A stretch of 64,000 nucleotides of DNA from Candidatus Latescibacterota bacterium (GCA_022821275.1 JAJEDY010000095.1:2700-66699); one strand, 5' to 3'; positions 3,942 to 63,094 are shown, counted from the stretch's first letter. Notes: generated by a model not told the origin, from the letters alone. Program-made: numbers and translations.

Positions 3942-3955
3942 TTTAGTAAAGGTTA

Positions 3956-4366: not shown

Positions 4367-4713
4367 TTGGTCTTGAGCTTTAAGGCAGCGTTGGCTTTGG
4401 CTAAGCGAACCAGATGTTCCAGGTATTCATATTGCGCCCACTCTCTTTCTTCTTCTGGTTGCAATCCTTCCGTACGATTCTTTTTAAGGAGATCATCAAT
4501 CCGTTTTTGTAATCTATCTGATGGTCGAAGCTTTATAATTTCTTCGGCAGAAGGAAGGGCGATCAGCTTTTCTAATATCTCCGAAGCGTCTTCAAAGGTC
4601 GAATGCGTATTTGCATCAATTTTGCGAAGTCCAAGTTCTATAATTTCGGCGTGATCTTCTCTATCGCGCAACCGCGCGGCTAGATCATCGGGAATATCCA
4701 TCGTGATTTTCAT
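4363..4713 (-). CDS. Small RHH/VapB-like protein, putative partner of the HNH nuclease
   Basis: MKITMDIPDDLAARL... is an N-terminal beta-strand/helix typical of RHH-type antitoxins, followed by a helical charged C-terminus. AAGAGG lies 6 nt upstream of the ATG at 4713. The track ORF starts at a TTG at 4740. Confidence 0.5.
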   Translation of the reverse strand: MKITMDIPDDLAARLRDREDHAEIIELGLRKIDANTHSTFEDASEILEKLIALPSAEEIIKLRPSDRLQKRIDDLLKKNRTEGLQPEEEREWAQYEYLEHLVRLAKANAALKLKTK

Positions 4714-4743
4714 ATAGACCTCTTGATGTTTGCGGCGCAATAC

Positions 4744-4766
4744 GACTATTTTCCTATAAAATAGTC
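4744..4766. promoter_or_regulatory. Perfect 9-bp inverted repeat (GACTATTTT-CCTAT-AAAATAGTC), operator-like
   Basis: Read directly from the sequence, about 30 nt upstream of the start of the small-gene/HNH pair. Confidence 0.4.
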
Positions 4767-4928
4767 AATAATAACCGTTTTTCAAGGCTGAACTTTTTCA
4801 GAACTATTCAAGTTTCGAAGCCATTTGTTTTATGTGTTCCTTTTCCGAAAGTGTCCGATTATCCATTCGCTCGCCGGATGTCTGATAATATCAGAAAAAA
4901 TGGCGACTCTCATGCACAATTCCCTGAG

Positions 4929-5522
4929 TTATTCTCTTATTACTGAAACGCCATCAACTTCGATTTTCTCTCCGGGTTGTCCTATTTCAGTGAAATACTG
5001 TTCATAGAAGTCACTGGGCGATAGACCTGAACGGGTCAACATGTCGTATATCTCTCGGCGACTCAGGTTTGGATCCAGTGTCCATACTCTGTCCTGTACG
5101 CAAGAAACGCCTGTGATCCCACGCAAGGCATCAGCGATTCTTCGACGATGCCACCACGTAAACGGCTCGGGCAACTGATCTGGGCTGAAATAGCCGACAT
5201 CTAAAACCTCTTTCGCTTGAGGTACTGGTTTGTCATTCTTAGGAATGGCTGCGTAAACGATCGCATGATCACCGCCTGAGCGCCAGTTTGGACTTGAGTA
5301 TATACCAACCAGGCGTACGAGATGGATGTCGATTCCCGTCTCTTCTTTGACTTCGCGTACTGCCGCTTGCGCTATTGATTCACCTGAATCGATTGCACCA
5401 CCGGGCAATGCCCAGACCTCGACATCCTTCCGCTTAATGAGCAGGACTTGTCCGTCTGAGACAACGACTGCACTGGCTCCAAAATTTGGCACTGGTTTTT
5501 TCTCCTTTAACATTACAGTCAA
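4929..5522 (-). CDS. NUDIX hydrolase
   Basis: Nudix box GGAIDSGESIAQAAVREVKEETGI. Confidence 0.85.
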   Translation of the reverse strand: MTVMLKEKKPVPNFGASAVVVSDGQVLLIKRKDVEVWALPGGAIDSGESIAQAAVREVKEETGIDIHLVRLVGIYSSPNWRSGGDHAIVYAAIPKNDKPVPQAKEVLDVGYFSPDQLPEPFTWWHRRRIADALRGITGVSCVQDRVWTLDPNLSRREIYDMLTRSGLSPSDFYEQYFTEIGQPGEKIEVDGVSVIRE

Positions 5523-6304
5523 CCACCTACTACCTTATTCTTTCTAAGAATCGGAAATTCGGCACCTTTCATTCCGGTATCTGTCAAATATATAAGGTTG
5601 CAATGATGATACGCACAGATATAGCTTCTACGTGGTTTATCAGATAAATTGGAGCCGCTTCTATGTAAAACATGCGAATGAAAAATGACGACTTCACCTG
5701 CGTGCATTTCGATTGGAACTTGATTTTTTTTATCCACATCGTGTGCCAATCGACCTGCGTAGAATGTTTCCGTCTCTCTCAATAATACATGATCAAGTCG
5801 CCCCCATTTGTGTGAGCCTGGAATCACCCATAGACATCCATTGCGGATAGTAACAACATCAAGAGCAACCCAACAAGTGATGTAATGTTCCGGCTCTGTT
5901 AGACCGTACTGAGCGTCTTGATGCCAATGAAATTCTTTGCCTTGAAACGGAGGTTTATTAGCTATCAAATTCCAATGAAGATCAGCATTGGGCCCAACCA
6001 GTTTCTTACAAGCTTCGACAAAAAGAGGTTGTTTTACGAACTCCGCAAATAAGTCGCTCTTCAAATGAGGATTGCGTTGAAACCACTTGGGATTGTCTGC
6101 GCTGTATTTTTCATATTCCTCCGCCAGCTTATTGAGCCACTCACTCGAGATTTTTTGTTCAACAATGAAAAATCCTCTCTCATCAAAGTCATTAAGATTA
6201 CGGCTGGTTATAATATCCACTTTGCCCTTCCTCAATTTACAGCCTCTTTTCAAAGAACCCGTTGCGTTTTGAGAAGAGGCCAGTAATTTTAACTCGCGAC
6301 GCAT
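5519..6304 (-). CDS. Phytanoyl-CoA dioxygenase (PhyH) family Fe(II)/2OG oxygenase
   Basis: FHWHQDAQYG ... VIFHSHVLHRSGSNLSDKPRRSY is the typical PhyH His/Asp...His...Arg pattern. Confidence 0.8.
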   Translation of the reverse strand: MRRELKLLASSQNATGSLKRGCKLRKGKVDIITSRNLNDFDERGFFIVEQKISSEWLNKLAEEYEKYSADNPKWFQRNPHLKSDLFAEFVKQPLFVEACKKLVGPNADLHWNLIANKPPFQGKEFHWHQDAQYGLTEPEHYITCWVALDVVTIRNGCLWVIPGSHKWGRLDHVLLRETETFYAGRLAHDVDKKNQVPIEMHAGEVVIFHSHVLHRSGSNLSDKPRRSYICAYHHCNLIYLTDTGMKGAEFPILRKNKVVGG

Positions 6305-6307
6305 GAG

Positions 6308-8710
6308 TCATTCGGACTTCAATGCGTCAACGGGATTTAGATAAGCCGCTCGCAATGATTGATAGACGACGGTAATTAGAGCGATGGCAATTACAACACC
6401 GCTTCCTGCAACAAAGGTCTCTATTTTCAAATTGTCACGATATGCAAACTCTTGTAGCCAGTCGTTCATGACATAAAAGGCAACTGGCCAGGCCAAAAGT
6501 GTAGCTATTGACAATAGTTTTAGATATTCTGTCGAAAGGAGACTTGTCACAGAAAATACGGAAGCACCTAATACTTTTCGAATACCTATTTCTTTTGTTC
6601 GTTGTTCCGCGGCAAAGGCAGAAAGTCCCAATAATCCCAGACACGAAATAACGAGTGCTAAGGCAAAAAAGAAATGTAAAAGTTGGGACAGCCGCATCTC
6701 AGAAAGGTAAAGCTGATTTAGACGTTCATCTAAGAAGCTAAATTGAAAAGGGCGGTTTGGTAAAAACCGTTCCCAGGTTGATTGGATAAAGGATAGTGTT
6801 TCTGATATGTTTTGAGGACGAATTCTCAACGAGAGCCACCGAAAACTCGTGGGTTCCTTAATGAGGAATAGGGGCTCAATTTTTTCATATAAAGACTCAA
6901 AATTATAGTCTTTGATAACACCAACCACAGTACCTTGATAACCGCGCCATCCCAATTTGAGTTGTTTCCCGACAGGGGCATCCCAACCCAGTTGCTTTAC
7001 AGCGGTCTCATTGATAAGAAACTCAAATTGAACGTTGTCTGAAACCGCTATATGCGATAAAGGCCGACCAGAAATAATCTCCACACCATAGACATCTACA
7101 TAGTCTTCATCTACACACAGCCTTCGCATACGCAAATTGCTCTGGGAATTATCCTCGGGAAGAATCAGTGACGAGTTATAGGGAATGCTCGGTATGGCTT
7201 CAGATGCAGAAGCAGCAATAATATTGGAATGAGCGCGGAATGCCTGCTTTACTGTTTCGTATTGTGGTATGAGATCGTAGTTCTCATAGAACAGGTGCAT
7301 CGTGATTACGAGGTCCTTATCAAAACCCAGATTTTTATTTTGGACATATTTCAATTGATTGTAGATGGTCAATATTCCGATGATGAGAACAATGGAGATA
7401 CCAAACTGAAAAACCACGAGAATTTTGCGAAGAATGATGCCTCTTGAATCGGTTTTTGATCGTCTTTGCAAAGACTGAATGGGTTGAAAAGCTGAAAGAA
7501 AAAAAGCGGGATAGCTTCCAGCGAGAATACCAGCCCCAAAAGCCACACATATTGTTAATAAAACATCTGATTGATTGAGAATGATATGTTTGCCAGTAAA
7601 GGCATTGGCATAAGGAAGTGCCATCTCTACGCAGCTAAGCGCAAGAATTGACGCTATTATCGAAAGAAATACTGACTCGCCTAAGAAATGTAGAATGAGT
7701 TGATGCCTCTGAGCGCCGACAATTTTACGCATACTTACTTCATGTGCGCGATAGGCAGAGCGCGCAGTAGAGAGGTTCATGAAATTGATGCAGCCAATCA
7801 GGAGAATAAAGATCGAAATGGTTGAAAAGAGGATAATATGAGTTATATCACCTGTCCCGAAGATTCCATAATCGGCTTTGGAATACAAATGTACACGCGA
7901 CAGGGGCTGCAAGTGATATGACACGCGAACGGGCTGATCCCCTGCCTCTTTAGCGACAAGAGATTCAATTTTTTGTTCTAATTCTGTTGATTCTTGTCCC
8001 TTTCCCAGTAAAACATATGTCTGTATTCGTCCCGACCAGGTGCTATTTAACCTGCTGGAGTCCCATATTGATTTCACAAATTCCGTTCTAATTGTCGTGG
8101 TTAAAAATTCAATTTGTAAATGCGTATTCGCAGGCGCGTCTTTTAGCACGCCTGTTACGATATAATCGCCACCAACTTTGCGTTGGTCCTCAACGACAAT
8201 GGTTTTGCCAATCGGATTCTCATCACCGAAATATTTACGCGCAATAGATTGGGTGATAATGACAGAATTAAGTTCATCAAAAACGGTTTCAGGATCTCCC
8301 TGGACTAAAGGGAGAGTAAATACATTAAAAATGTCTGGGTCTGTTACACAAAATCGCTGCCGATGAATTTTGTCTTTGTAGCGAATCCAGGCATCACTTT
8401 CTCGGAAATACGTGCGAATCGCATATTCTACTTCTGGAAAATTGGCCTCCAGGCTCGGAGCTAATTCTCCAGGCGTAAGATCAGTATATTCATTCCCAAC
8501 GCCAGGCGTGCGAATTTCTCGAATAACTCTATAAATTTCATCGTATTTGACATGATGCTGGTCATAGCTCAATTCATCCTGTACAAAAAGATATATCAGG
8601 AGACAGCAAGTTAGACCCATAGCAAGGCCCAGGATATTGATGAGGGTATAATACTTTTGCCTTATAAAGTTACGAAGCGCAATTTTGATATGAAAATTGT
8701 TGAATAACAC
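6308..8710 (-). CDS. ABC-transporter permease, MacB/FtsX duplicated type
   Basis: Two FtsX modules (HEVSMRKIVGAQ; RTKEIGIRKVLGAS) with large periplasmic domains. The preferred start is the GTG at 8710, which has AAAGGAGAAAG just upstream. The track start at 8728 is a GTG overlapping the upstream stop. Confidence 0.85.
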   Translation of the reverse strand: MLFNNFHIKIALRNFIRQKYYTLINILGLAMGLTCCLLIYLFVQDELSYDQHHVKYDEIYRVIREIRTPGVGNEYTDLTPGELAPSLEANFPEVEYAIRTYFRESDAWIRYKDKIHRQRFCVTDPDIFNVFTLPLVQGDPETVFDELNSVIITQSIARKYFGDENPIGKTIVVEDQRKVGGDYIVTGVLKDAPANTHLQIEFLTTTIRTEFVKSIWDSSRLNSTWSGRIQTYVLLGKGQESTELEQKIESLVAKEAGDQPVRVSYHLQPLSRVHLYSKADYGIFGTGDITHIILFSTISIFILLIGCINFMNLSTARSAYRAHEVSMRKIVGAQRHQLILHFLGESVFLSIIASILALSCVEMALPYANAFTGKHIILNQSDVLLTICVAFGAGILAGSYPAFFLSAFQPIQSLQRRSKTDSRGIILRKILVVFQFGISIVLIIGILTIYNQLKYVQNKNLGFDKDLVITMHLFYENYDLIPQYETVKQAFRAHSNIIAASASEAIPSIPYNSSLILPEDNSQSNLRMRRLCVDEDYVDVYGVEIISGRPLSHIAVSDNVQFEFLINETAVKQLGWDAPVGKQLKLGWRGYQGTVVGVIKDYNFESLYEKIEPLFLIKEPTSFRWLSLRIRPQNISETLSFIQSTWERFLPNRPFQFSFLDERLNQLYLSEMRLSQLLHFFFALALVISCLGLLGLSAFAAEQRTKEIGIRKVLGASVFSVTSLLSTEYLKLLSIATLLAWPVAFYVMNDWLQEFAYRDNLKIETFVAGSGVVIAIALITVVYQSLRAAYLNPVDALKSE

Positions 8711-8724
8711 GAGTCTTTCTCCTT

Positions 8725-11142
8725 TCACTCGTAACGAAGCGCGTCAACCGGATTGGCGCGTGCAGCGCGGATGGCCTGAAAGCTGATGGTGCAAAATGCG
8801 ATCAAAAGCACCAGCAGGCTGCCAGAGAGAAATACGCTCGGATCCAGATCGATTCGGTAGGCAAAGCGGTTGAGATAGGACCGGATGAAGAGATATGCGG
8901 CAGGCCAGGCTAGCAGACTTGCGACTATGATGAGCACTGCAAGTTCCTTCAGAAGAAGAATTAGAATATCGCCAGACGATGCACCAAGGACTTTGCGAAC
9001 ACCAATTTCTTTGGTGCGGACTTCTGTGGTATAGGCAATCAAGCCCAATAGACCCAGACAGGCGACAAAAATGGCCAGGCCTGAAAGATAAGTGAAGGCC
9101 TTCTGGGTACGCATTTCGCCCTGGTAGAGGTTATTCAAAAAACCATCGACAAATAGAAATTTGAAGGCGTGAGCTGGCACAAAATCCTTCCATACTGATG
9201 CGAGAAAGTCCAGTACTCTGGGCAGATTGTCCATACGCACTTTGACGGTGACATAATCGTACGCTCGTCCGTGGTATATAAGCATCAGGGGCCGCACGGG
9301 ATTGTGCAGACTGCTGTTATGAAAGTCTTTGAAAATACCGACGACAGTGCAATCCCTATCCCAAACGCGCAGGACGATACCCGGTTTTGCGCCGCCCAGT
9401 GCCTGAGCGGCTGTCTGGTTCAGGAGCAATTTGAATTGATCTTTGTCAGTTAGGGCCAACGGCCTGCCTTCAAGGATGGGGATGTTATAGACCTCGGTAA
9501 ATTTGTGATCCACCGACAGGTAGTGGACATTCATGGAATCTGCGTGGTCCAGCCGTCTGACCAACGAGCGGTCAGTATTATTTTCATAACCGGGCGGAGC
9601 CAGAGAAACAGTCGCGCCCAAAACGTCGGCACTTGCTTCAAAACGGTCTCGAATAATTTCAAAGTGCTCGCGCAAGCGTCGATCTTCTTTAATCAGGGGC
9701 ATTGTAATTAAGCCCTCTTTTGCAAACCCGAGGTCGCGTGTGCGAATATAGTTTGTTTGCTGCCAGGCAATGAGGGTACCAATGACAAGGACCACCGAAA
9801 TGGCAAATTGGAAAGTTACCAGACTACGCCGAAGTTGGGATCGTCCGCCGATCTTCTGTCCTGATCCCTTTAGAACTTGCACAGCAGCAAAGGATGATAA
9901 GAACATCGCTGGGTAGGCACCGGCAATTAGGCCAACAAAGAGTGCGAGCAATGCAGCACCGACGACGGACCAGACACTTAGCTGTAAAGAAGAAATTAGC
10001 AGGTTGTTGACTGTAGGAAGGGCAAGCTCGACAATAGCAAGTGCTAAAATAGCCGATATCCCGGCAAGGAGAACAGTCTCTCCGAGAAACTGGGTGATAA
10101 GCTGGGCGCGTGTAGATCCCACGGCCTTGCGGACACCAACTTCCAGGGCGCGGTTCGCTCCCCGCGCTGTGGATAGGTTTACGAAATTGACACATGCCAG
10201 CGCCAAAATGATTGCTCCGACAAGGCCAAAAGTATAGCAGCGGTTGATGTCTCCTAAAACAAGACCGACCTGCCGGTCCGACCCATCCATCTGCAATTGG
10301 AAATCGCGTCTGGCATATAAATGCTGACGACGCAAAGGCATAAGGTCGTAAGTATCACGCGGATCAGCACCATCGCCCAGATGACGATGTGCAAAATCCT
10401 GGAGCTTGGAACGAAGAGATGACGGGGAAACATCAGGCGCGAGCCGGACAAAGGTTCGCAGAATGAGGAATCCCGTTGTGGGTGACCACTGTCTTCGATT
10501 CCATGCTGAACCTGCAGGTCCCCTGGTTCCCTCATGAGTCACTAACAGGTCAAACATAAACTCACCCGATGTGGTAGCTGGCTGATCGCGGAGAATACCG
10601 TCGATGAGGAAGTCGCCTTCCACCCACTTGTAGTAAATTTTGAGCGTTCGACCAACAACGTCTGTGGTGCCAAAGAGCTTTTGTGCAAAACTTTCTGTGA
10701 TATAGACGGATCCAGGTGTTAATTCGGGTGGCTGGCTTCCGTCAATTAATGGGAAGGTGAAAAAGCGCAGGAAATTGGGATTGGCCACAGTACCGCGCAC
10801 ATCAAAGCCGCGATCTTCAAGACCAGCCCACATGGGGCGCGTGAGAAAGCGGGTCATATCCTTAATTTCGGGCAATTCATCGATAAGTGTGGGTCCAGCC
10901 CGGTCCTGAGTACCGAGTGCGTAATATGGGAGGCCGCCACCTGATGGGTGTACAAGCCGCATCACGCGATGAATGCGGTCTATGTCCCGATGATAGGCGT
11001 CATAGCTGAACTCGTGCTGCAAGAACAGACCGACGAGGATACAAGCCGCCATCCCCACGGCAAGGCCAAAGATGTTGACGAGCGTGTAAAGGCGGTGCCG
11101 AAAAAGATTGCGGAAAGATGTGCGGAGATAACTCAAAACCAT
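8725..11142 (-). CDS. ABC-transporter permease, MacB/FtsX duplicated type
   Basis: LEVGVRKAVGS and RTKEIGVRKVLGAS modules. The preferred start is MVLSYLRTSFRNLFRHRLYTLVNIFGLAVG at 11142, because the 35-aa track extension overlaps the upstream methyltransferase gene. Confidence 0.85.
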   Translation of the reverse strand: MVLSYLRTSFRNLFRHRLYTLVNIFGLAVGMAACILVGLFLQHEFSYDAYHRDIDRIHRVMRLVHPSGGGLPYYALGTQDRAGPTLIDELPEIKDMTRFLTRPMWAGLEDRGFDVRGTVANPNFLRFFTFPLIDGSQPPELTPGSVYITESFAQKLFGTTDVVGRTLKIYYKWVEGDFLIDGILRDQPATTSGEFMFDLLVTHEGTRGPAGSAWNRRQWSPTTGFLILRTFVRLAPDVSPSSLRSKLQDFAHRHLGDGADPRDTYDLMPLRRQHLYARRDFQLQMDGSDRQVGLVLGDINRCYTFGLVGAIILALACVNFVNLSTARGANRALEVGVRKAVGSTRAQLITQFLGETVLLAGISAILALAIVELALPTVNNLLISSLQLSVWSVVGAALLALFVGLIAGAYPAMFLSSFAAVQVLKGSGQKIGGRSQLRRSLVTFQFAISVVLVIGTLIAWQQTNYIRTRDLGFAKEGLITMPLIKEDRRLREHFEIIRDRFEASADVLGATVSLAPPGYENNTDRSLVRRLDHADSMNVHYLSVDHKFTEVYNIPILEGRPLALTDKDQFKLLLNQTAAQALGGAKPGIVLRVWDRDCTVVGIFKDFHNSSLHNPVRPLMLIYHGRAYDYVTVKVRMDNLPRVLDFLASVWKDFVPAHAFKFLFVDGFLNNLYQGEMRTQKAFTYLSGLAIFVACLGLLGLIAYTTEVRTKEIGVRKVLGASSGDILILLLKELAVLIIVASLLAWPAAYLFIRSYLNRFAYRIDLDPSVFLSGSLLVLLIAFCTISFQAIRAARANPVDALRYE

Positions 11143-11149
11143 TTTGACC

Positions 11150-11779
11150 TCATTCTGAATTCGTACCTGAAGCCACGAATATCCCGATGCTGGCAAACTC
11201 GCCGCCACAACTCGACTGCGCTTCGCAACACGTACCGATGCTGTCAATACGTATTTCTCTCAGTCCCGCGCTCTGAAACCACGCCACAATATCTGCTCTT
11301 TTGAAACCCATCCAGCGGTCGTGGTGTTCTTCTCGCAGGAAGTCAAATTCGTGTTCATCAAGATCAGTGATCACCAGTTTACCGGCAGGCTTCAGGATTC
11401 TGACCATTTCTGCGATTGCTTCTGACGGGGATTCGACATGGTGGAGACACATGTTGGCAAAAGCATAGTCAACCGTTGCATCGGAAATGGGTAGATTTTG
11501 GGCTTGTCCAATGCGATAGTCAATTGTCTCAATGCCCGCAAATTTTCTCTTCATTTCTTTCAGGATTGCTTCAGACTGATCAACTGCAATGACCTGAAGC
11601 CCTGCCCGTATAAGACTCTCAGAGATAAAGCCTGTACCTGCGCCAATATCAGCGGCAATTTTGCCTTTTTGTACAGCAGCGGTAGAAAGTGCTGTCACTC
11701 TGACTTCATCGGAGAAGAAATTTTCGCGCATGTCGTCCCAGTCTTGGGCAACGCGATCAAAATAGTCCTTACTGCTCAT
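11150..11779 (-). CDS. Class I SAM-dependent methyltransferase with Cys-rich C-terminal tail
   Basis: Motif I DIGAGTGF, then VDYAFANMCLHHV. The C-terminus is GTCCEAQSSCGGEFASIGIFVASG. Confidence 0.85.
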   Translation of the reverse strand: MSSKDYFDRVAQDWDDMRENFFSDEVRVTALSTAAVQKGKIAADIGAGTGFISESLIRAGLQVIAVDQSEAILKEMKRKFAGIETIDYRIGQAQNLPISDATVDYAFANMCLHHVESPSEAIAEMVRILKPAGKLVITDLDEHEFDFLREEHHDRWMGFKRADIVAWFQSAGLREIRIDSIGTCCEAQSSCGGEFASIGIFVASGTNSE

Positions 11780-56968: not shown

Positions 56969-57016
56969 TGTAGCAAAATCAAATACCCATTTTGAAGTTA
57001 CATATCACGTAAATAC

Positions 57017-57736
57017 ATGACGGAAAAAGACCCCAAAATCTTATCCCTGGATGAAATAGAGGAAATTGAAAAGCTCACATTGCGTTGGATATTCCAAGCG
57101 GTTTATGATTTCGGAATGGAAGCACATGAAATATTCCTTAGATCGCCTGATAGCGTTAAAGATATTGCTGAAGATATAACGCGAGAATTGCTTGATCGGC
57201 TTTCCGGTTTTAATGTGCAACAGAGAGTGTATGGAACAGTTGATTACAAAAAAGCAAGATATGTGATTCTTCCTGATCAAACCGTCAGACAGGCATTGTT
57301 TATTGACTCAAAAGCAGAGAAGGAAAATCGTTCTGCAACGATTCAGATGTCACAAACTTCCATGTGGGTGAAACAACGGCGATCCGGTGCCCAGGTTAAT
57401 GAAAAAGGATTTTTGCCAGAAATATCCAGATATGGAGATAAAAATTATCTCACGACGACATGCCTTATTCATTTCAGCTACGATGATGATCTTTTAGGTC
57501 ATCACCGTTTGCATGAAGTGACTATGGTAGCAATTCCAAATGGAAAATTGCAAGAAAAGTATAACCCAACAGTTGATGATGGCATCTGGCTGGCTGGTAG
57601 AAATGCACCGACATTAGGTGAAGATTTCAGGGTAAGAGTAGGCTTTAACAGATTAAGGGCCAAGGCTTCGTGGCGAATACAAAGGCTTACCTATAATGAA
57701 AAAAGACAGGAGTGTATTGGGTCATGGCAATCGTAA
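57017..57736 (+). CDS. Putative type II restriction endonuclease (PD-(D/E)XK-like)
   Basis: Possible catalytic motif ...GTVD(76)YKK...ALFID(97)SK(99)AEK. It overlaps the downstream DNA methyltransferase gene by 13 nt. No family recognised by eye. Confidence 0.5.
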   Translation: MTEKDPKILSLDEIEEIEKLTLRWIFQAVYDFGMEAHEIFLRSPDSVKDIAEDITRELLDRLSGFNVQQRVYGTVDYKKARYVILPDQTVRQALFIDSKAEKENRSATIQMSQTSMWVKQRRSGAQVNEKGFLPEISRYGDKNYLTTTCLIHFSYDDDLLGHHRLHEVTMVAIPNGKLQEKYNPTVDDGIWLAGRNAPTLGEDFRVRVGFNRLRAKASWRIQRLTYNEKRQECIGSWQS

Positions 57737-58749
57737 ACTTGTTTAAATCACTTGCTCCGAACGCGATATATCACGGCGATTCGCAGGAGCTTTTGGAGAG
57801 AATTGAGCGGGAATCTATTGCGCTCAGTATCTGGTCGCCTCCGTATTACGTCGGGAAAGATTACGAGAAGGATTTATCATTTGAAGATTGGAAAAATCTT
57901 CTGCAAAAGGTGATCAAACTTCATTTTCCCATTGTGAAACCCGGCGGATTTTTGGTGATTAATATTGCCGATATATTGTGTTTTAAGGATGAGACGATGC
58001 CCAAAATTATGGCGGAAAACATTTCTCGTCGGAAAATTAATCTTACAAAAGAAGACATACTTAAGGTTGTACAACAGCATCCTGATTGGAATAGGTACAA
58101 ACTTGCAGAACACTTTGGGTGCAGTGAGCAAACAATAGATCGACGGCTTAATGGTAACAATATTAGAGGTGGGAAATATCAATCCCAAACAAGGGTCTAT
58201 CTCGTTGGGAATTTGATAGAAAAAGCTGCTACAGATGCAGGTTTTTATTTGTATGACCGGCGTATATGGGTAAAAGACGCCGCCTGGGAGAATTCGAGAT
58301 GGCATACCATATCATACCGTTCTGTAGATGAGTCAGAATATATTTATATTTTTTGGAAGCCGGGTATAACGAAGATTGATCGATCAAGGCTTACAAAACA
58401 AGAATGGGTAAATTGGGGTTCCAGAGGCGTATGGGAAATTCCCTCTGTACGCAGCAATTCAGATCATGATTCTAAGTTTCCAGTTGAATTGCCGCGCAGA
58501 GCTATTAAGCTATTTACTGAGCCTGATGAAATAGTGCTCGATTGTTTTATAGGAAGCGGCACGACTGCTTTGGCAGCATTAAGTGAGGGAAGGAGATATA
58601 TCGGTATTGACAAGGAAAAGAGGTCAGTGGAGATTGCAACAGAGGCTGTAAAATCATTCAATACGTACGAAAAAGAGCCTGAGCAGATGGATCTGCTGAT
58701 ACGGGAATTGGAAGCAGGGTATGAGATAAATGAAGGACGTCAGATGTGA
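57724..58749 (+). CDS. Beta-class N4/N6 DNA methyltransferase (motif IV before motif I)
   Basis: SIWSPPYYVG (motif IV, SPPY) near the N-terminus and LDCFIGSGTTALAA (motif I) near the C-terminus. The region between them contains the HTH-like segment RYKLAEHFGCSEQTIDRRLNG. An alternative GTG start is at 57712. Confidence 0.85.
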   Translation: MAIVNLFKSLAPNAIYHGDSQELLERIERESIALSIWSPPYYVGKDYEKDLSFEDWKNLLQKVIKLHFPIVKPGGFLVINIADILCFKDETMPKIMAENISRRKINLTKEDILKVVQQHPDWNRYKLAEHFGCSEQTIDRRLNGNNIRGGKYQSQTRVYLVGNLIEKAATDAGFYLYDRRIWVKDAAWENSRWHTISYRSVDESEYIYIFWKPGITKIDRSRLTKQEWVNWGSRGVWEIPSVRSNSDHDSKFPVELPRRAIKLFTEPDEIVLDCFIGSGTTALAALSEGRRYIGIDKEKRSVEIATEAVKSFNTYEKEPEQMDLLIRELEAGYEINEGRQM

Positions 58750-58809
58750 CGTCAAAAGTGGGCGAACTCAAGGGTGTAATCTACAACTGACTATTGACCA
58801 CGAAGTGAT

Positions 58810-59031
58810 ATGAATAAAGACATCAAACTTTTAGATGTGATTGCATTGACCGAAGATATTGCTGAGTATGATCTTTGTCAGGGTCAGGTTGGCACAATTG
58901 TTGAGGTACTTTCGGACGGTCAAGCGTTTGAAGTTGAATTTTGTGATCGCGAAGGTCGCATCTATGAATCAGTTGGTTTACGTCCCAACCAGTTTATCGT
59001 ATTACACTATGCGCCGATCACAAATGTTTGA
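58810..59031 (+). CDS. DUF4926-like small protein
   Basis: 73 aa: LLDVIALTEDIAEYDLCQGQVGTIVEVLSDGQAFEVEFCDREGRIYESVGLRPNQFIVL, the SH3-like small-protein pattern of DUF4926 (recalled from memory). Confidence 0.6.
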   Translation: MNKDIKLLDVIALTEDIAEYDLCQGQVGTIVEVLSDGQAFEVEFCDREGRIYESVGLRPNQFIVLHYAPITNV

Positions 59032-59056: not shown

Positions 59057-59111
59057 CAAAGCCCCGGATTTCTCCAGGGCTTTTTTTATAGCGCAATAAT
59101 CAATTTGACCT
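59057..59111 (+). repeat. Direct repeat copy 1 (contains a terminator hairpin + T7)
   Basis: CAAAGCCCCGGATTTCTCCAGGGCTTTTTTTATAGCGCAATAATCAATTTGACCT. About 93% identical to 63038-63094. Confidence 0.9.
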
Positions 59112-59127
59112 GTTCCAGATAAGGCAG

Positions 59128-59312
59128 AACGTGATGTGTGACTTTAAATAGTGCAAAAGAGGTTTCTCGGCTATCTTGAATTGTTCACTAAACAAGAAGC
59201 CATCCAACCAAAATCTTAACCCATACCATGTGTGTCTTTCTCAATATCATCAATTACAGAGACCCGCTGGATTTTGACGGACTCGTTCAATTTTGAAGTC
59301 ACATATCGCGTT
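59128..59312 (-). other. Stem-closed ~185-nt element 1 (20-nt inverted-repeat arms, ~140-nt interior), 3' of the 417-aa nuclease gene
   Basis: Arm AACGTGATGTGTGACTTTAAAT (59128-59149, +) pairs with the arm whose reverse complement is AACGCGATATGTGACTTCAAAA (59291-59312). The two mismatches would be G-U pairs in RNA. Confidence 0.6.
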
Positions 59313-59341
59313 TGTCAGGGGTTATTTTTTACCGGCAGTTT

Positions 59342-60595
59342 TTAATCCCAAGTCTCCAGTAGTCTTGTTATTTTTTGTCGAACTTCATCTATAAATGTGT
59401 CCTCTGAATCATCTAATCTAAGAGCTTCTTCTCGATTCCATCGGTAGATGCAACTTAAACCTGGGCAAGTTCTCAGGTAGCTTCTTCCGGTTTCAGTAAA
59501 GTTCTCTTCAAGTCCGGAGACATCCTCACAGCTAATCAGTTCGAGCTGTAAAAGCTGTCGAAAAAAATCGCGAAAATCTGAAGAATCGCGGTTTACTTGG
59601 CTAATCATTTGAGGATTTTGTTCCCAAAAATTGATATAGGCTTCAAGATCCAATGGTGTGTTTGCCCAACATAAATGTTTCTGTATATGCGAAAAATGCA
59701 GATTGGGATCAATATTCCATCCTCTATTGGTAAGATCCTGTAAGGCATCTGTATTGAGACTCTCATATAAGGCGCGTGCCTGTGCCATTGTGTCCCCAGG
59801 GTGAATTTTTAGTTCTATACACCAATTGTTATCCTGTTCTCGTTTTATGCCCAAATAAATTCGACGAGCAGGTAAATCATTAGAACCAAGTTCGATATGT
59901 TGACCTTGAACCTCTCCAATGGAAATGGATTCCAAAATTCTGACACATCTTCTGTTGATCAAATACGGGTCGTCTTTACAGATGCTGAACTTTGAAAATG
60001 GATTCAGAGACCCAAAATGCGTATCTACAAAAGTCAGAAAATCTTCAATCAGTAACGCTTCAGCGCCATGCACAAGCTGTTTTTGTAGTAAGGCACTCAG
60101 GCACTCAATAACCTCCTTCCAATCAATGCCAACCGGATCTTCTACAATTTCAATTTCTGAGTCTTCTGCGATACTAGGGTTTAATTGCTCTTCCCAGACA
60201 TTTTCAGACCAGGGTTTGTTTTCTATCACGAGAATCCATTTTGGATCAGAATCAAAATATATAACTCCATCATAGCGGGCACTTCGATCCACATTTTCAA
60301 TTTTGTTCTCGGGTGTCCAATTCTTATTGGTCATCAATAAGGAAACCAAATATCCCTGAGAATCGGTTATGTTTTTCACTTGAGTCTGAATATTGTCAAG
60401 TTTCATTTGTAGCTCTGTTAAAGTCGGAAGAACTCGGTCATGCTCATTTAAAATTTGATAAGACCTGACTAAATCAATAAAGGTAGTCTGCACCAAGGGT
60501 ACCATCCTCAATACAACAAGGAACGCACGGGTTAATTGATCTTCATGGTGAGGTCCTTTGCTCTTGTACGGTTCGAAGTAGTTCAGGTGATTCAT
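59342..60595 (-). CDS. PD-(D/E)XK nuclease-family protein (417 aa)
   Basis: Preferred start MNHLNYFEPY at 60595, with AAAGGAGG 7 nt upstream. Motifs are HHEDQLTRAFLVVL ... RYDGVIYFDSDPKWILVIENKPW...EEQL (E...D...ExK...QL, as in the PDDEXK_4-type family). The 77-aa track extension crosses a palindromic intergenic element. Confidence 0.6.
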   Translation of the reverse strand: MNHLNYFEPYKSKGPHHEDQLTRAFLVVLRMVPLVQTTFIDLVRSYQILNEHDRVLPTLTELQMKLDNIQTQVKNITDSQGYLVSLLMTNKNWTPENKIENVDRSARYDGVIYFDSDPKWILVIENKPWSENVWEEQLNPSIAEDSEIEIVEDPVGIDWKEVIECLSALLQKQLVHGAEALLIEDFLTFVDTHFGSLNPFSKFSICKDDPYLINRRCVRILESISIGEVQGQHIELGSNDLPARRIYLGIKREQDNNWCIELKIHPGDTMAQARALYESLNTDALQDLTNRGWNIDPNLHFSHIQKHLCWANTPLDLEAYINFWEQNPQMISQVNRDSSDFRDFFRQLLQLELISCEDVSGLEENFTETGRSYLRTCPGLSCIYRWNREEALRLDDSEDTFIDEVRQKITRLLETWD

Positions 60596-60651
60596 TACAA
60601 ATCCTCCTTTTTGAGAAGTGGTAACAAACGGTTTTCTATACAATATAACTT

Positions 60652-60831
60652 CATGTGTGACTTCAAGATCAGTGGTCATGAGAGCACTGTCATTCTGAGC
60701 GGAGCGCAGCGGAGTCGAAGAATCTGCTGCCTCAACGATGTGCATGGGTAACAGATTCTTCGTCAGCCTATCGGCTTTCTCAGCAGGACAGGGTATAGTA
60801 GCCCATTTACTTTTAAAGTCACACATCGCGT
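60652..60831 (-). other. Stem-closed ~180-nt element 2 (same arm core, unrelated palindromic interior), between the two nuclease genes
   Basis: Arm CATGTGTGACTTCAAG (60652-60667, +) pairs with the arm whose reverse complement is ACGCGATGTGTGACTTTAAAA (60811-60831), with 11 perfect bp (ATGTGTGACTT). The interior holds the 11-bp hairpin CGAAGAATCTG...CAGATTCTTCG and GTCATTCTGAGCGGAGCGCAGCGGAG. Confidence 0.6.
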
Positions 60832-60866
60832 AAGGCAGAGTAATTCCCTATTCGCAAAGCTTCGAT

Positions 60867-62459
60867 TTACTCTGGTGGTATAAGCAATGCAATCAATTCG
60901 TGTAATTTTGAGAAACGAAAATCTTCTAATTTCAAAGGGCGCCAAAGAGCATACCAAGAACCGTATCTTGGACTAGGACAATTTTGACGTGGTTGAAAAT
61001 CGTAACCCAGATCTGTACCTTTAATCTTCTGAAAAAGATCATTTCGACACTCGTTATCATCTTTCTCAATTCTCATTTGAATAGACCCGACATCTTCATC
61101 TTTTTTTGCTAATATTCCCGTTTTGTTATCAAACTCAATATGAATCCAGTACGAAAATGAGCCTGACAATATCAAATTTAATTCGGATAGCAATAGAGAT
61201 CCTGCTATTCTTATTTCTTCAGATGCAAACCATACTCCCGACGGTTCAGAATTGGTCGTCGGTTCAGTTCTTAACAGGTTGTGTTGGCGACTATGTTCTT
61301 TGAACCAATGCCAGAACAGTTGATTGCAAAATCGATCAGAGAAACGATGAATGGTTGGAAGTGTGGGGGGCTCTGCTTCTGTCTCTTCTATAAAAAATCC
61401 TCGTAGTTTTTGAAAGAACTCAGCCTCTTTCCGAAGATGAGTTGCGAATGAGGAGACAAAAGAATTCTTCTGTGCAGATGTCTGTCTTAAAATTTCGTCG
61501 GCCAAATGTGCAAACGTTATAAGGGGATAATTTGTGCGTTCATCTTCACTAAGGTCGGGAAAATTCCACTCGTCAAATGCAATTCTTCCAAGTTTTGTCT
61601 GTGTTTGTGCATAGTTTTTAATTTGGTCTCGACTTCCGTACGTTTTGCATTTGACCTCAAAAACCGCAATTAGATTGTCATTTTCATATACACAAATATC
61701 GAATCGTTTATCTCTACTCTCGGTTACTTCGGGGCTTATTGTCAATTCTGAATTTGTGTTAGCTGATAATTCCAATTTTTCGAGTAACACAGATAATAAT
61801 TGATTACCTAAACCATGGTCTCCTTTTGGATCCATAAGCCAACAAATTGTACCAGAGACAAAAGTTTCGCGATCTGCAGGTGCTAAATATTGCCAAACTG
61901 AATGAGGTTCCCTGTTTTCCTTCTTAACTATGACAGAAGAGTTGTCAGGTTGTTTAGACCCCAGAGGCGATGTTGTGACTTTCTGGGACTGTTGAATGCC
62001 TGAGCGTTCTGTGTAAATGGACGCCAATTTAGGCCTGCCTCTTGGCTGTTTATTGCGCCATTGCACAATTTTTTGCGCGTCAGGTTCAGATAGGATAATA
62101 GGATATGTGGGGCCATATTGTTTGCCGATGTCTATTCCCGAAGCTCGCATTGAATGGATGGTATTGCGCAATGTGCGTGGTGTAATGTCCAATTTTTCTG
62201 CTAATTCTGAAATTGAATAAATGGTCTCTATTTTTCCATGTAAAATTTTTGCGTGTTCCGAAAGAATATCGTTCAGATCCACGCCCTTACTGGCATTTTC
62301 AATTGTAATAGATACCAATTTATCTTTATCATTATAGGACAGAATAATGTCCTGATGTTCGCCATCTGTTCCGGCATTTTCCGCGCCTCCAGATGCAGGT
62401 GTCGAACTCAGTGTAATATGAAGCGTATCCGTTTCGGAAAAATACTCCAGAGATTTCAT
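60867..62459 (-). CDS. DUF2283-like / HTH / PD-(D/E)XK nuclease fusion protein (530 aa)
   Basis: aa 1-67: YFSETDTLHITL...ILSYNDKDKLVSITIENASKG (DUF2283-like). HTH: ISELAEKLDITPRTLRNTIHSM. Nuclease core: ETFVSGTICWLMDPKGDHGLGNQLL...RFDICVYENDNLIAVFEVKCK...DQIKNY. Confidence 0.6.
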   Translation of the reverse strand: MKSLEYFSETDTLHITLSSTPASGGAENAGTDGEHQDIILSYNDKDKLVSITIENASKGVDLNDILSEHAKILHGKIETIYSISELAEKLDITPRTLRNTIHSMRASGIDIGKQYGPTYPIILSEPDAQKIVQWRNKQPRGRPKLASIYTERSGIQQSQKVTTSPLGSKQPDNSSVIVKKENREPHSVWQYLAPADRETFVSGTICWLMDPKGDHGLGNQLLSVLLEKLELSANTNSELTISPEVTESRDKRFDICVYENDNLIAVFEVKCKTYGSRDQIKNYAQTQTKLGRIAFDEWNFPDLSEDERTNYPLITFAHLADEILRQTSAQKNSFVSSFATHLRKEAEFFQKLRGFFIEETEAEPPTLPTIHRFSDRFCNQLFWHWFKEHSRQHNLLRTEPTTNSEPSGVWFASEEIRIAGSLLLSELNLILSGSFSYWIHIEFDNKTGILAKKDEDVGSIQMRIEKDDNECRNDLFQKIKGTDLGYDFQPRQNCPSPRYGSWYALWRPLKLEDFRFSKLHELIALLIPPE

Positions 62460-62485
62460 ATCAGAGGTCCTTTCGTTTTTCTTTT

Positions 62486-62875
62486 TTAGTGTACAGGCGA
62501 TTGCAAAATTGATGCGTTATTGTTAATATAACTTGGTGTGAATACGGTGCTTCTCTTATTGTCTCCCTCAAATTCGAGTATCAAACTGTGTATTTCAACT
62601 CGATGCTCAACAGGGCTTACTTGATAGGTCTCGCCATCTCTGCTCACAATCTCAAAAATTCCTCCGTAAAGGTATCTGTCTCCGTCAATCTGTGCGAAGG
62701 TGACTATGAAATCTGTAACAAATCGCTCTTTGGCTATTCCTCTATATGTTTGCCAACTTGCCCATTCTTCAGGATTCCAAATTGAGTCAATCGGGTATTC
62801 CCCTGTCTCATTTCGCTTGGCAAGGTGAACTCGAGCATTGGAATCGTCATATTCTGGGAAAATCTCTTGAATCAT
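62486..62875 (-). CDS. Small hypothetical protein (129 aa), first gene of the nuclease operon
   Basis: AAGGAG 7 nt upstream of the ATG and a 26-nt gap to the next gene. WASWQTYRGIAKERFVTDFIVTFAQIDGDRYLYGGIFEIV loosely recalls a non-catalytic N-terminal module seen fused to some GIY-YIG nucleases (from memory, unverified). Confidence 0.45.
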   Translation of the reverse strand: MIQEIFPEYDDSNARVHLAKRNETGEYPIDSIWNPEEWASWQTYRGIAKERFVTDFIVTFAQIDGDRYLYGGIFEIVSRDGETYQVSPVEHRVEIHSLILEFEGDNKRSTVFTPSYINNNASILQSPVH

Positions 62876-63037
62876 GTTAATTCTCCTTTTGTAATTCAGG
62901 TTGATCTCTGAGTGTTCGGTTGCGAAAATATGGCGTCTTCTTCATCGATAATATCCTTCTCATATAAGGCGACCTATATGGGAATATTGGTCAACCGGTC
63001 AACATAGAATATAACCATATAGAACTATCTGTCAATA

Positions 63038-63094
63038 CAAAAAGCCCCGGATTTCTCCAAGGCTTTTTTCATAGCGCAGTAATCAATTTGACCT
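63038..63094 (+). repeat. Direct repeat copy 2
   Basis: CAAAAAGCCCCGGATTTCTCCAAGGCTTTTTTCATAGCGCAGTAATCAATTTGACCT. Confidence 0.9.

What the first reader, a model, noticed from the sequence alone, without database searches (positions are those of the whole stretch)
59342..62875. Three-gene operon (small protein, DUF2283/HTH/PD-(D/E)XK fusion, second PD-(D/E)XK protein): candidate undescribed defence-type module
Seen in the sequence:
- Three co-directional minus-strand genes, each with a strong Shine-Dalgarno (AAGGAG, AAAGGA, AAAGGAGG). They sit inside an AT-rich island next to a type II R-M pair.
- The 530-aa protein strings together three parts. First a DUF2283-like N-terminus; that domain usually occurs as a stand-alone antitoxin-like partner protein. 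Then an HTH (ISELAEKLDITPRTLRNTI). Then a nuclease core (ETFVSGTICWLMDPKGDHGLG...RFDICVY...IAVFEVKCK...DQIKNY).
- The 417-aa protein has the same core logic (EDQLTRAFLVVL...YDGVIYF...ILVIENKPW...EEQL) followed by about 230 aa I cannot place.
- No ATPase, helicase, methylase or other partner is present in the operon.

Inference: two divergent nucleases plus a DNA-binding, antitoxin-like fusion and a 129-aa accessory protein look like an abortive-infection or restriction-like module. I do not recognise the combination as any named system.
Basis: partly seen in the sequence, partly recalled or inferred. Interest (0 to 1): 0.85.

Follow-up and report, generated by a model that had tools for sequence, protein, structure and literature searches.

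The report
Three unrelated nuclease-type genes, side by side
The three genes are real and nuclease-related, but they are three separately acquired pieces sitting next to each other in a fast-changing genomic hot spot, not one conserved three-part defence system; one of them rides on a small transposon.

Summary
Three co-directional minus-strand genes (129, 530 and 417 aa) with Shine-Dalgarno sites lie in a 39-41% GC island beside an SfiI-like R-M pair. The 530-aa protein is DUF2283 + HTH + PDDEXK_4.

The "three-gene module" reading does not hold.

- **g3.** It lies inside a 1,703-bp unit with 19/20-matching terminal inverted repeats and an exact 8-bp target duplication. A sister genome keeps the empty site. 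None of 22 distant g3 loci has g1 or g2. Close relatives sit elsewhere, coupled to a DUF2779 gene.
- **g2.** It is a lineage-specific fusion. At the same locus in another genome the DUF2283-HTH part and the nuclease are separate genes. In most genomes the nuclease stands alone. It matches PADLOC candidate PDC-S26 only over the catalytic core.
- **g1.** It is a free-standing copy of the N-terminal domain of UzuA (Uzume defence) without the GIY-YIG nuclease. It is absent from a genome that keeps both g2 parts.

Most likely these are independent, probably defence-type, nuclease genes stacked in a hypervariable spot.

The most interesting piece is the g3 family. It is widespread (at least 167 clusters) and has no Pfam or PADLOC match. 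Its structure model is confident but resembles no solved structure. It keeps an invariant E…D…ExK…Q motif and often lies next to restriction genes.

The parts
62486..62875 (-). g1, 129 aa: free-standing homologue of the N-terminal (non-catalytic) domain of UzuA (Uzume). No GIY-YIG domain.
   Evidence: Exhaustive phmmer found 35 clusters. Relatives of 250-290 aa carry a C-terminal GIY-YIG domain and match PADLOC UzuA at E 1e-52 to 1e-29 over the full profile. g1 is 47% identical to P0154 (E 2.7e-23). g1 itself has no direct Pfam or PADLOC hit. It is 97-99% identical between strains, with dS 0.013-0.026.
60867..62459 (-). g2, 530 aa fusion protein: DUF2283 (aa 5-57), MerR/HTH_11-type HTH (aa 81-116), unconstrained linker (aa ~139-186), RecB-like PDDEXK_4 nuclease plus an uncharacterised C-terminal region (aa 187-530).
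   Evidence: Pfam. Alignment with invariant E198, D254, E268xK270 and Q279. AF2 gives the nuclease part pLDDT 80-94 and the linker and residues 1-78 below 50. Foldseek: EcoT38I E 0.027; the HTH matches MerR/BldC at probability 0.99. Linker dN/dS is 1.2-1.4.
60870..61901 (-). Nuclease portion of g2 (g2C). In most genomes this is a stand-alone ~345-aa gene.
   Evidence: 22 of 30 homologues are 329-370 aa (one, P0023, is called at 568 aa) and cover only this part. There are stand-alone copies in L002, L027-L031 and L033-L035. PDC-S26 profiles match only positions ~44-139 of 413.
59342..60595 (-). g3, 417 aa: member of a widespread uncharacterised family with an invariant E18/D109/E125xK127/Q137 motif. 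Putative PD-(D/E)XK-type nuclease.
   Evidence: At least 167 homologue clusters across many phyla, none annotated. Invariant columns. AF2 pLDDT 91.3. No PDB or BFVD match at E < 0.001. No Pfam or PADLOC hit for 50 members.
59129..60831 (-). 1,703-bp non-autonomous transposon-like unit carrying only g3.
   Evidence: Terminal inverted repeats 60812-60831 and 59129-59148 match at 19/20. The unit is flanked by an exact 8-bp duplication, and L001 has the unoccupied site.
60832..60839 (-). Target-site duplication, left copy (TCTGCCTT).
59121..59128 (-). Target-site duplication, right copy (TCTGCCTT).
60647..60831 (-). Left end module (~185 nt) of the unit, itself bounded by the same 16-20-nt motif in inverted orientation. 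It occupies most of the g2-g3 gap.
   Evidence: It folds better than shuffles (z -3.07).
59128..59312 (-). Right end module (~185 nt) of the unit. Same motif pair, unrelated interior.
   Evidence: Its fold is not exceptional (z -0.92).
63041..63094 (+). 54-nt direct repeat, copy A (terminator-like hairpin plus 25 nt), just upstream of the g1 promoter.
   Evidence: 94% identical to copy B. Absent from L001, L003 and L036, which carry a DUF4926 5' fragment there instead.
59058..59111 (+). 54-nt direct repeat, copy B. Bidirectional terminator between the trio and the convergent DUF4926 gene.
63008..63035 (-). Promoter-like site TTGACA-16-TATATT (11/12) upstream of g1. The region just downstream of it (62994..62887) is shared with L036, where g1 is absent.
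57017..58749 (+). Neighbouring SfiI-like type II R-M pair. This is context and not part of the trio.

Best explanation
The trio is an assemblage. Three independently acquired units lie head to tail in a hypervariable, low-GC hot spot between a DHDPS gene and a sulfatase gene.

**Unit 1, g2.** This is a RecB-like PDDEXK_4 nuclease that normally exists as a solo ~345-aa gene. In this lineage an upstream DUF2283 + MerR-type HTH gene has become fused to it through an unconstrained linker. Inferred role: the N-terminal part binds DNA to autoregulate the promoter and/or holds the nuclease in check, in the manner of an antitoxin. The nuclease is the DNA-cutting effector.

**Unit 2, g1.** This is a nuclease-less copy of the UzuA (Uzume) N-terminal domain, placed between the shared promoter and g2. 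Inferred role: a target-binding or modulating accessory, or simply a separately selected passenger.

**Unit 3, g3.** This is a solo gene of a widespread unannotated family with a PD-(D/E)XK-like E/D/ExK/Q signature. It was delivered here by a 1.7-kb element bounded by terminal inverted repeats and a target-site duplication.

**Shown:** gene content, domain calls, independent distributions, the insertion structure, the fusion/split polymorphism, and purifying but relaxed selection.

**Inferred:** nuclease activity, a defence role, and any regulatory role of the HTH.
For: **g3 is separable.**
- L001 has g1-g2 and the same flanks but only 44 nt where the window has 1,757 nt.
- The unit has 19/20 TIRs and an exact 8-bp TSD.
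- None of 22 diverse g3 loci has a g1, g2N or g2C homologue.
- g3 homologues at 80-82% identity sit at a different locus, overlapping a DUF2779 gene by 4 nt. DUF2779 is also adjacent in a Bacteroidota locus.

**g2 is a fusion.**
- 22 of 30 homologues cover only the nuclease part; most are about 345 aa.
- L036/L037 have a 148-aa DUF2283-HTH gene and a separate 348-aa nuclease gene at the same locus.
- Several fused forms retain the solo gene's start Met.
- Linker dN/dS is above 1.

**g1 is separable.**
- It is replaced by an unrelated 158 nt in L036 downstream of the same promoter region.
- Other short g1-type genes have unrelated neighbours.
- Its dS is about 10-fold lower than that of neighbouring genes, which indicates a separate history.

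**Defence flavour.**
- UzuA match of the g1 relatives.
- PDC-S26 core match of g2C.
- A SIR2-STAND gene lies next to a g2C homologue.
- R-M, McrBC-like, DUF6079+methylase or AAA_13 genes lie next to g3 homologues.
- The hot spot holds different cargo in different genomes: FRG-domain gene, TnpB, IS elements.
Against: - g1 and g2 are only 26 nt apart under one promoter. Every genome seen with g1 also has the fused g2. A functional g1-g2 pair cannot be excluded.
- No activity of any kind has been measured.
- The nuclease assignment of g3 rests on motif conservation and strand/helix order only. Profile and fold searches were not significant.
- The defence association of g3 is qualitative. About 6 of 19 loci show it, others are housekeeping, and no enrichment statistic was computed.
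- No cognate transposase and no other copy of the TIR motif pair was found.
- Sampling of g2 relatives is narrow (30 clusters, mostly one lineage).
Confidence: 0.62

Rival explanations
1. g1 and g2 form a genuine two-component system, with g3 an unrelated transposon passenger. The UzuA-type N-domain (g1) supplies target or infection sensing in trans to the PD-(D/E)XK nuclease of g2. This replaces the GIY-YIG nuclease that is fused to that domain in Uzume.
For: There is a 26-nt gap and a shared promoter. g1 co-occurs with the fused g2 in the window, L001, L003 and a 45-kb contig. The g1 domain is fused to a nuclease in its full-length relatives. g1 is nearly invariant between strains.
Against: L036/L037 keep both g2 parts without g1. 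Three other short g1-type genes have no nuclease neighbour. Solo g2C genes elsewhere never have g1. All g1+g2 cases come from one closely related lineage, so they are not independent observations.
Confidence: 0.2
2. One reading: one three-gene abortive-infection or restriction-like module in which two nucleases, the HTH/antitoxin-like fusion and the small protein act together.
For: The genes are co-directional with strong SD sites and lie in a defence-type island. The trio is intact in L003 and the window.
Against: g3 is absent in L001, lies on a TIR/TSD unit, is fragmented on one related contig, and is elsewhere never linked to g1 or g2. A 271-nt gap containing a structured transposon end separates g2 and g3. 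Each gene has its own distribution and its own divergence level.
Confidence: 0.05
3. The genes are selfish or addiction-type elements or mobile-element baggage, with no benefit against phage. Examples: g2 as a fused toxin-antitoxin that merely stabilises the island, g3 as a nuclease serving its transposon or a DUF2779-linked DNA-processing function, and g1 as a decaying Uzume remnant.
For: The fusion/split of a DUF2283-HTH part with a nuclease resembles toxin-antitoxin architecture. IS elements, an integrase and TA genes lie near homologues. dN/dS is relaxed at about 0.4 for g2C and g3. g3 is coupled to a Cas4-like/exonuclease-like DUF2779 gene in its other locus.
Against: dN/dS is below 1, and the catalytic motifs are invariant across deep divergence. 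g1 is intact and nearly invariant, not decaying. Neighbours of homologues are often bona fide restriction or defence genes. None of the three families was found on viral contigs.
Confidence: 0.13

Closest known systems
Uzume (UzuA), a single-gene anti-phage system with a GIY-YIG nuclease domain
   Same: g1 is homologous (47% identity, E 2.7e-23) to the N-terminal ~130 aa of proteins that match the PADLOC UzuA profile end to end (E 1e-52).
   Different: g1 stops before the linker and lacks the GIY-YIG domain altogether. It gives no direct UzuA hit. In the literature I could reach, Uzume's mechanism is described only as 'probably nucleic acid degradation' (10.1101/2024.10.26.620412).
PDC-S26 (PADLOC phage-defence candidate, single gene, ~350-415 aa)
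   Same: Similar size to the solo g2C gene. It has an N-terminal PDDEXK_4-type core that aligns with g2 aa 195-289 (E 3.5e-8; up to 2.6e-13 for family members).
   Different: Only about a quarter to a third of the profile aligns, and the ~230-aa C-terminal region does not. g2 additionally carries DUF2283 + HTH. PDC-S26 itself is only a computational candidate (mentioned in PMC11551731).
Pfam PDDEXK_4 (PF14281), function listed as unknown in the PD-(D/E)XK survey (PMC3424549)
   Same: g2 scores 35.1 bits against a 22.3-bit cut-off. E, D, ExK and QxxxY are invariant in the family.
   Different: The family has no assigned biology, so membership says only 'metal-dependent nuclease fold'.
Fused toxin-antitoxin defence proteins (e.g. 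CapRel-type; from my own knowledge, not tested here)
   Same: A regulatory or neutralising module and an effector occur either as two adjacent genes or as one polypeptide. Here the split state is in L036 and the fused state in the window.
   Different: The domains are different. There is no evidence here of toxicity, neutralisation or a phage trigger.
Composite or passenger-carrying non-autonomous transposons built from MITE-like ends (from my own knowledge)
   Same: The g3 unit has 20-nt TIRs, an 8-bp TSD, no transposase, one passenger gene and an empty allele in a sister genome.
   Different: The two ~185-nt end modules share only their ends, not their interiors. No other copies and no cognate transposase were identified.
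Integron gene cassettes / attC sites
   Same: A promoterless single-gene unit followed by an imperfect inverted repeat with conserved ends and a variable centre.
   Different: There are no RYYYAAC/GTTRRRY core sites at the arms (read). The repeat is about 185 nt long. A target-site duplication is present, which integron recombination does not make. No integrase is nearby. Rejected.

Membership tests
Uzume / UzuA (for g1) | Protein matches the UzuA profile | tested here: inconclusive
   g1 gives no PADLOC hit at E <= 1. However, it is 47-53% identical to P0153-P0155, which do hit UzuA: P0154 at 1.3e-52 over the full profile, and the short P0153 at 2.5e-5 over profile positions 38-122.
Uzume / UzuA (for g1) | C-terminal GIY-YIG nuclease domain in the same polypeptide | tested here: not met
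   g1 ends at aa 129, before the linker (alignment). Only 26 nt separate it from g2. There is no GIY-YIG hit.
Uzume / UzuA (for g1) | Confers phage resistance as a single gene | not testable with these tools
   Requires a phage-challenge experiment.
PDC-S26 (for g2) | Full-length match to a PDC-S26 profile | tested here: not met
   The best hit, PDLC04983, has E 3.5e-8 but covers only profile positions 44-139 of 413. The same holds for solo relatives.
PDC-S26 (for g2) | Single-gene unit | tested here: inconclusive
   Solo in L002, L027-L031 and L033-L035. In the window it is fused to DUF2283-HTH and preceded by g1.
PD-(D/E)XK superfamily, PDDEXK_4 (for g2) | Profile match above the curated threshold | tested here: met
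   PF14281: 35.1 bits against a cut-off of 22.3, aa 192-286.
PD-(D/E)XK superfamily, PDDEXK_4 (for g2) | Catalytic D...(D/E)xK conserved among homologues | tested here: met
   D254, E268, K270 and Q279 are invariant. E198 and Y283 are >=90% conserved across 24 sequences down to 41% identity.
PD-(D/E)XK superfamily, PDDEXK_4 (for g2) | Restriction-endonuclease-like fold | tested here: inconclusive
   The best Foldseek hit is the EcoT38I endonuclease, E 0.027, probability 0.80, TM 0.14-0.20.
PD-(D/E)XK superfamily (for g3) | Catalytic D...(D/E)xK conserved among homologues | tested here: met
   E18, D109, E125, K127 and Q137 are invariant in 50 sequences down to 32% identity. D109 lies at the start of a strand and E125/K127 within the next strand of the AF2 model.
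PD-(D/E)XK superfamily (for g3) | Significant profile or fold similarity to a known member | tested here: not met
   hhalign against g2C gives E 0.16, covering the motif stretch only. No Pfam or PADLOC hit. Best PDB match E 0.16. BFVD phage PD-(D/E)XK protein E 0.13, probability 0.6.
Type II toxin-antitoxin pair with a DUF2283-type antitoxin (for g2) | Two small adjacent genes, one neutralising the other | tested here: inconclusive
   A split state exists in L036/L037: a 148-aa DUF2283-HTH gene plus a 348-aa nuclease gene 100 nt apart. The window has the fused state. Toxicity and neutralisation cannot be tested here.
Three-gene operon/system (the finding) | Conserved co-occurrence of the three genes across lineages | tested here: not met
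   The trio occurs only in the window and L003. g3 is absent in L001. g1 and g3 are absent in L036/L037. None of 22 distant g3 loci has g1 or g2.
Non-autonomous transposable element (for the g3 unit) | Terminal inverted repeats, a target-site duplication and an empty allele | tested here: met
   19/20 TIR, exact 8-bp TCTGCCTT on both sides, and L001 has the unoccupied site.
Non-autonomous transposable element (for the g3 unit) | Multiple dispersed copies and a cognate transposase | tested here: not met
   The motif pairs occur only at this locus in the window and in L003. There is one half-site before the R-M endonuclease gene. No match was found in the other loci or in viral contigs. The whole genome was not available.
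Integron cassette (for the g3 unit) | attC with RYYYAAC / GTTRRRY core sites, and no target duplication | tested here: not met
   The arms read ACGCGATGTGTGAC... / ...GTCACACATCACGT, with no core sites, and a TSD is present.

The most novel reading that the evidence does not exclude
g3 represents an undescribed, widespread family of solo anti-phage (or anti-mobile-DNA) nucleases with a fold unlike any solved structure. The family sometimes works with a DUF2779 Cas4-like/exonuclease partner, and it spreads between defence hot spots as the cargo of small TIR-bounded non-autonomous transposons. In parallel, short nuclease-less UzuA N-domains such as g1 could be exchangeable sensor modules that can be paired with different nucleases.
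Probability: 0.3. Interest if true: 0.6.

Novelty: new variant of a known kind. Interest (0 to 1): 0.4.

Why it matters
As a "new three-gene defence system" the finding does not stand, so it should not be entered in catalogues as one. Four narrower points remain useful.

1. The g3 family is a clean candidate for experimental testing. It has at least 167 clusters across many bacterial phyla (Acidobacteriota, Bacillota, Bacteroidota, Nitrospirota and others) plus a Nanoarchaeota MAG. It has no Pfam or PADLOC model. Its predicted structure is confident but has no structural neighbour. It keeps an invariant catalytic-type motif.
2. The locus shows, at nucleotide resolution, how a defence-type gene is dropped into a hot spot by a small transposon. 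The empty site is preserved in a sister genome.
3. The locus captures a regulator-nuclease pair in both split and fused states.
4. It reveals nuclease-less UzuA N-domain proteins. These may help to work out what that domain does in Uzume, whose mechanism is not described in the literature I could reach.

Tried and rejected
- **attC / integron cassette for the inverted-repeat modules.** Rejected: no core sites, and a TSD is present.
- **Structured RNA.** Rfam at E <= 1 gave only a chance sRNA hit well below threshold. One end module folds well (z -3.1) and the other does not (z -0.9).
- **Recent MITE copies.** The interiors of the two end modules are unrelated.
- **g3 as a paralogue of g2C.** hhalign E 0.16.
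- **Solved-structure relatives by sequence.** None for either family.
- **Phage origin.** No relatives of g1, g2C or g3 and no TIR match on IMG/VR contigs.
- **Metagenome scan with the g1 alignment.** The scan was then spent on g2C and gave only 2 loci.
- **The 158-nt replacement of g1 in L036 as a DUF4258-type toxin remnant.** No Pfam hit at E <= 0.1. Left unexplained.
- **Small ORFs upstream of solo g2C genes as DUF2283-like partners.** No hits, or unrelated CopG/DUF498.
- **Literature on DUF2283.** The one substantive mention (PMC4755241) concerns FseA-type ICE activators and did not help.
- **Organism identification.** The cluster look-up returned no names. A PVC-group bacterium is only my guess from the sulfatase, ECF-sigma and FtsX-permease content.
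- **The low-GC stretch at 1-11 kb.** It encodes MacB/FtsX-type permease paralogues, not defence genes.

Full report
**1. Observation**

The three minus-strand ORFs exist as described: g1 62875..62486 (129 aa), g2 62459..60867 (530 aa) and g3 60595..59342 (417 aa). Each has a purine-rich SD 6-9 nt upstream (AAGGAG, GAAAGGA, AAAGGAGG).

The intergenic gaps are unequal: 26 nt between g1 and g2, and 271 nt between g2 and g3.

The block lies in a 39-41% GC island, against 51-61% GC on either side. It is next to an SfiI-like endonuclease, an N4/N6 methylase and a DUF4926 gene.

g1 and g3 have no Pfam, NCBIfam or PADLOC hit.

**2. g2 is a fusion of two units**

Only 30 homologue clusters were found. 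Eight are full-length fusions (78-93% identical). The other 22 cover only aa ~185-530, and most are about 345 aa.

In the alignment the solo proteins start at MESHSVWQY. Several fused proteins still read ...ENMESHSVWQY at that point, although the window copy has lost that Met.

E198, D254, E268-x-K270 and Q279-xxx-Y283 are invariant or nearly so. This is a RecB-like motif set (my reading of the motifs).

Solo copies sit in unrelated places:
- After gyrAB with IS1595 and other IS elements and variable cargo (L027-L030).
- Next to a PIN_12 gene (L002).
- Next to a 1,041-aa SIR2-STAND protein (L035).
- In a Desulfococcaceae MAG next to transketolase, with HicA/DUF433 nearby (L031).
- Next to a tyrosine recombinase (L034).

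The decisive case is L036/L037. At the same chromosomal spot as the window (DHDPS ... DUF4926/sulfatase), there is a separate 148-aa DUF2283-HTH gene and, 100 nt later and in another frame, a separate 348-aa nuclease gene.

Between strains the linker (aa 141-186) has dN/dS 1.2-1.4. The value is 0.12-0.33 for the N-terminal part and 0.39-0.40 for the nuclease part.

The AF2 model gives pLDDT 80-94 for aa 187-530 and below 50 for the linker and for aa 1-78. By Foldseek the nuclease region is closest to the EcoT38I restriction endonuclease (E 0.027, probability 0.8). The HTH superposes on MerR/BldC DNA-binding domains (probability 0.99).

PADLOC's candidate PDC-S26 matches g2 and its solo relatives, but only over the catalytic core (profile positions ~44-139 of 413).

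**3. g1 is a nuclease-less UzuA N-domain**

The word-indexed search found one 99%-identical protein. The exhaustive phmmer search found 35 clusters.

Relatives of 250-290 aa carry a C-terminal GIY-YIG domain. They match the PADLOC UzuA (Uzume) profile end to end, with E 1e-52 to 1e-29. A short relative (P0153, 148 aa) matches only the N-terminal part of that profile.

g1 aligns with the first ~125 residues and stops before the linker. [quoted passage not shown] I found no mechanistic study.

g1 is not a fixed partner of g2. In L036 it is replaced by an unrelated 158-nt segment downstream of the same promoter region (window 62994..62887 = L036 5145..5252). A 122-aa relative in L026 has no nuclease neighbour. 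A 131-aa relative is followed by an unrelated ORF and preceded by an IS5-type transposase fragment.

g1 is 97-99% identical between strains, with dS 0.013-0.026. That is roughly 4- to 30-fold lower than its neighbours (dS 0.10-0.39). It therefore has a separate, recent history at this locus.

**4. g3 is the cargo of a small transposon-like unit**

In L001 the locus is otherwise collinear (89-96% nt identity), but the window's 1,757 nt between g2 and the terminator are replaced by 44 nt.

Inside that segment, window 59129-60831 (1,703 bp) is bounded by 20-nt terminal inverted repeats, ACGCGATGTGTGACTTTAAA and TTTAAAGTCACACATCACGT, which match at 19/20. It is flanked on both sides by exactly TCTGCCTT. 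Removing the unit and one TCTGCCTT copy gives a sequence that lines up with L001's unoccupied site.

An 8-nt identity at two fixed positions has a chance probability of about 1.5e-5.

Each end of the unit is a ~185-nt module bounded by the same 16-nt motif in inverted orientation, with an unrelated interior. g3 is the only ORF inside.

The ATG that opens the alternative 494-aa reading lies within the left TIR.

The left module fills most of the g2-g3 gap and folds unusually well (z -3.07). Co-transcription of g3 with g1-g2 is therefore possible but unproven.

**5. The g3 family**

At least 167 clusters of ~420 aa were found, with no source annotation beyond "hypothetical protein". They come from Acidobacteriota, Sumerlaeota, Bacillota, Bacteroidota, Nitrospirota, an actinobacterium and a Nanoarchaeota MAG.

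E18, R23, Q72, D109, E125, K127, P128 and Q137 are invariant in 50 sequences down to 32% identity.

The AF2 model is confident (pLDDT 91.3, pTM 0.78). D109 lies at the start of one strand and E125/K127 in the next, followed by a short helix carrying Q137. That order is the one expected for a PD-(D/E)XK core.

Nothing significant supports the fold assignment:
- hhalign against g2C aligns just this motif stretch (E 0.16).
- The best PDB match has E 0.16 and TM ~0.1.
- The best suggestive BFVD hit is a phage "PD-(D/E)XK nuclease superfamily protein" (E 0.13, probability 0.6).
- 50 members give no consistent Pfam or PADLOC family.

None of the 22 genome loci contains a g1, g2N or g2C homologue.

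The only recurrent neighbour is DUF2779, which has a weak Cas4-like N-terminus and an RNase-H-like region. It overlaps g3 by 4 nt in L038-L040, where g3 is 80-82% identical to the window copy but at a different locus. It lies directly upstream of g3 in a Vicingus MAG.

Other neighbours:
- Type I R-M (L004).
- A methylase-specificity fusion (L007).
- DUF6079 plus a methylase (L009).
- A McrB/McrC-like pair (L013).
- An AAA_13 ATPase (L020).
- WYL regulator + AAA ATPase + HigB-like/HTH (L038-L040).
- Plain metabolism, such as aconitase (L005).

**6. The locus as a whole**

Between the DHDPS and sulfatase genes, related genomes carry different cargo:
- g1+g2+g3 (window, L003).
- g1+g2 (L001).
- Split g2 + FRG-domain gene + a 243-aa ORF + TnpB/IS elements (L036/L037).

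A 54-nt repeat (a terminator hairpin plus 25 nt) brackets the trio in the window. The other genomes carry a DUF4926 5' fragment at the upstream position instead. This pattern is the footprint of recombination among repeated DUF4926/terminator cassettes.

Divergence is mosaic across the locus. The unlinked L002 nuclease is closer to the window's g2C (82% aa) than the same-locus copies in L001 and L003 are (77%).

**7. Interpretation**

The best-supported reading is three independent units stacked in a hypervariable hot spot. Each is plausibly a nucleic-acid-targeting defence or conflict gene.

The mechanism I commit to, with about 0.6 confidence for the architecture and about 0.35 for the biology, is this:
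- g2 is a self-regulated nuclease whose DUF2283-HTH part binds DNA and/or restrains the effector.
- g3 is a solo nuclease brought in by a transposon.
- g1 is an accessory or independent UzuA-type binding module.

A genuine g1-g2 pair remains possible (about 0.2). The three-gene module is unlikely (about 0.05).

**8. Novelty and score**

Nothing here maps to a named, validated system. Each piece does connect to known kinds: Uzume, PDC-S26/PDDEXK_4, TA-like fusions and non-autonomous transposons. The trio as a system is not real.

The g3 family is the part worth following up. Interest is 0.4.

Noticed in passing
window 56995-57010 (also L001 11725-11740, L003 11573-11588): A half-site of the transposon-end motif (AAGTTACATATCACGT) lies 7 nt upstream of the start codon of the SfiI-like endonuclease gene. 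A weaker palindromic version overlaps the methylase stop (58737-58752). It could be a solo TIR relic or an operator. The methylase itself has a weak internal HTH_11 hit (aa 113-146, E 3e-4).
   Followed up: partly
window 59058-59111 and 63041-63094; L001 13348-13374 and 14778-14835; L036 8703-8730 and 11961-11995: The terminator-like hairpin AAAGCCCCGGATTTCTCCAGGGCTTTTTT recurs at several cassette boundaries in related genomes. It is usually at the 3' side of DUF4926 or methylase copies. L001 also has a second methylase copy (97.5% identical) beyond an IS element.
   Followed up: partly
L036 5253-5410: Where the window has g1, L036 has a 158-nt stretch that reads as the start-less C-terminal tail of a small protein (...RWIYIAEIDKYVRVVVEADGETIHNAFPDR...). 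It ends 1 nt before the DUF2283-HTH start codon. It gave no Pfam hit. It is possibly the remnant of an earlier upstream partner gene.
   Followed up: partly
related 44,959-nt contig (cluster members P0192, P0193, P0195): g3 is recorded there only as fragments of 102, 67 and 127 aa, beside intact g1 (P0151) and g2 (P0188). This is either pseudogenisation of g3 in that strain or long-read frameshift errors.
   Followed up: no
window vs L001/L003/L002, g2 aa 187-530: The nuclease part of g2 is much more diverged between same-locus copies (77% aa, dN 0.15) than the flanking genes. It is closer to an unlinked solo copy in another genome (82%). This suggests allele exchange between loci or diversifying pressure.
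   Followed up: partly
L038-L040 (g3 homologue loci): A conserved WYL-HTH regulator followed by a ~946-aa AAA+ protein lies a few kb upstream of the g3-DUF2779 pair. In L038 a Gp49(HigB-like)/HTH_3 pair lies immediately upstream. This looks like another defence-type neighbourhood.
   Followed up: no
window 1232-11247: The second lower-GC stretch of the window encodes three large paralogous MacB/FtsX-type ABC permease proteins (730, 806 and 840 aa), not defence genes.
   Followed up: partly
window 58810-59031: DUF4926 (73 aa, E 8.6e-25) is convergent with the trio. Fragments of a second copy mark the other side of the hot spot in sister genomes, so this small gene seems to travel with the cassette boundaries.
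   Followed up: partly
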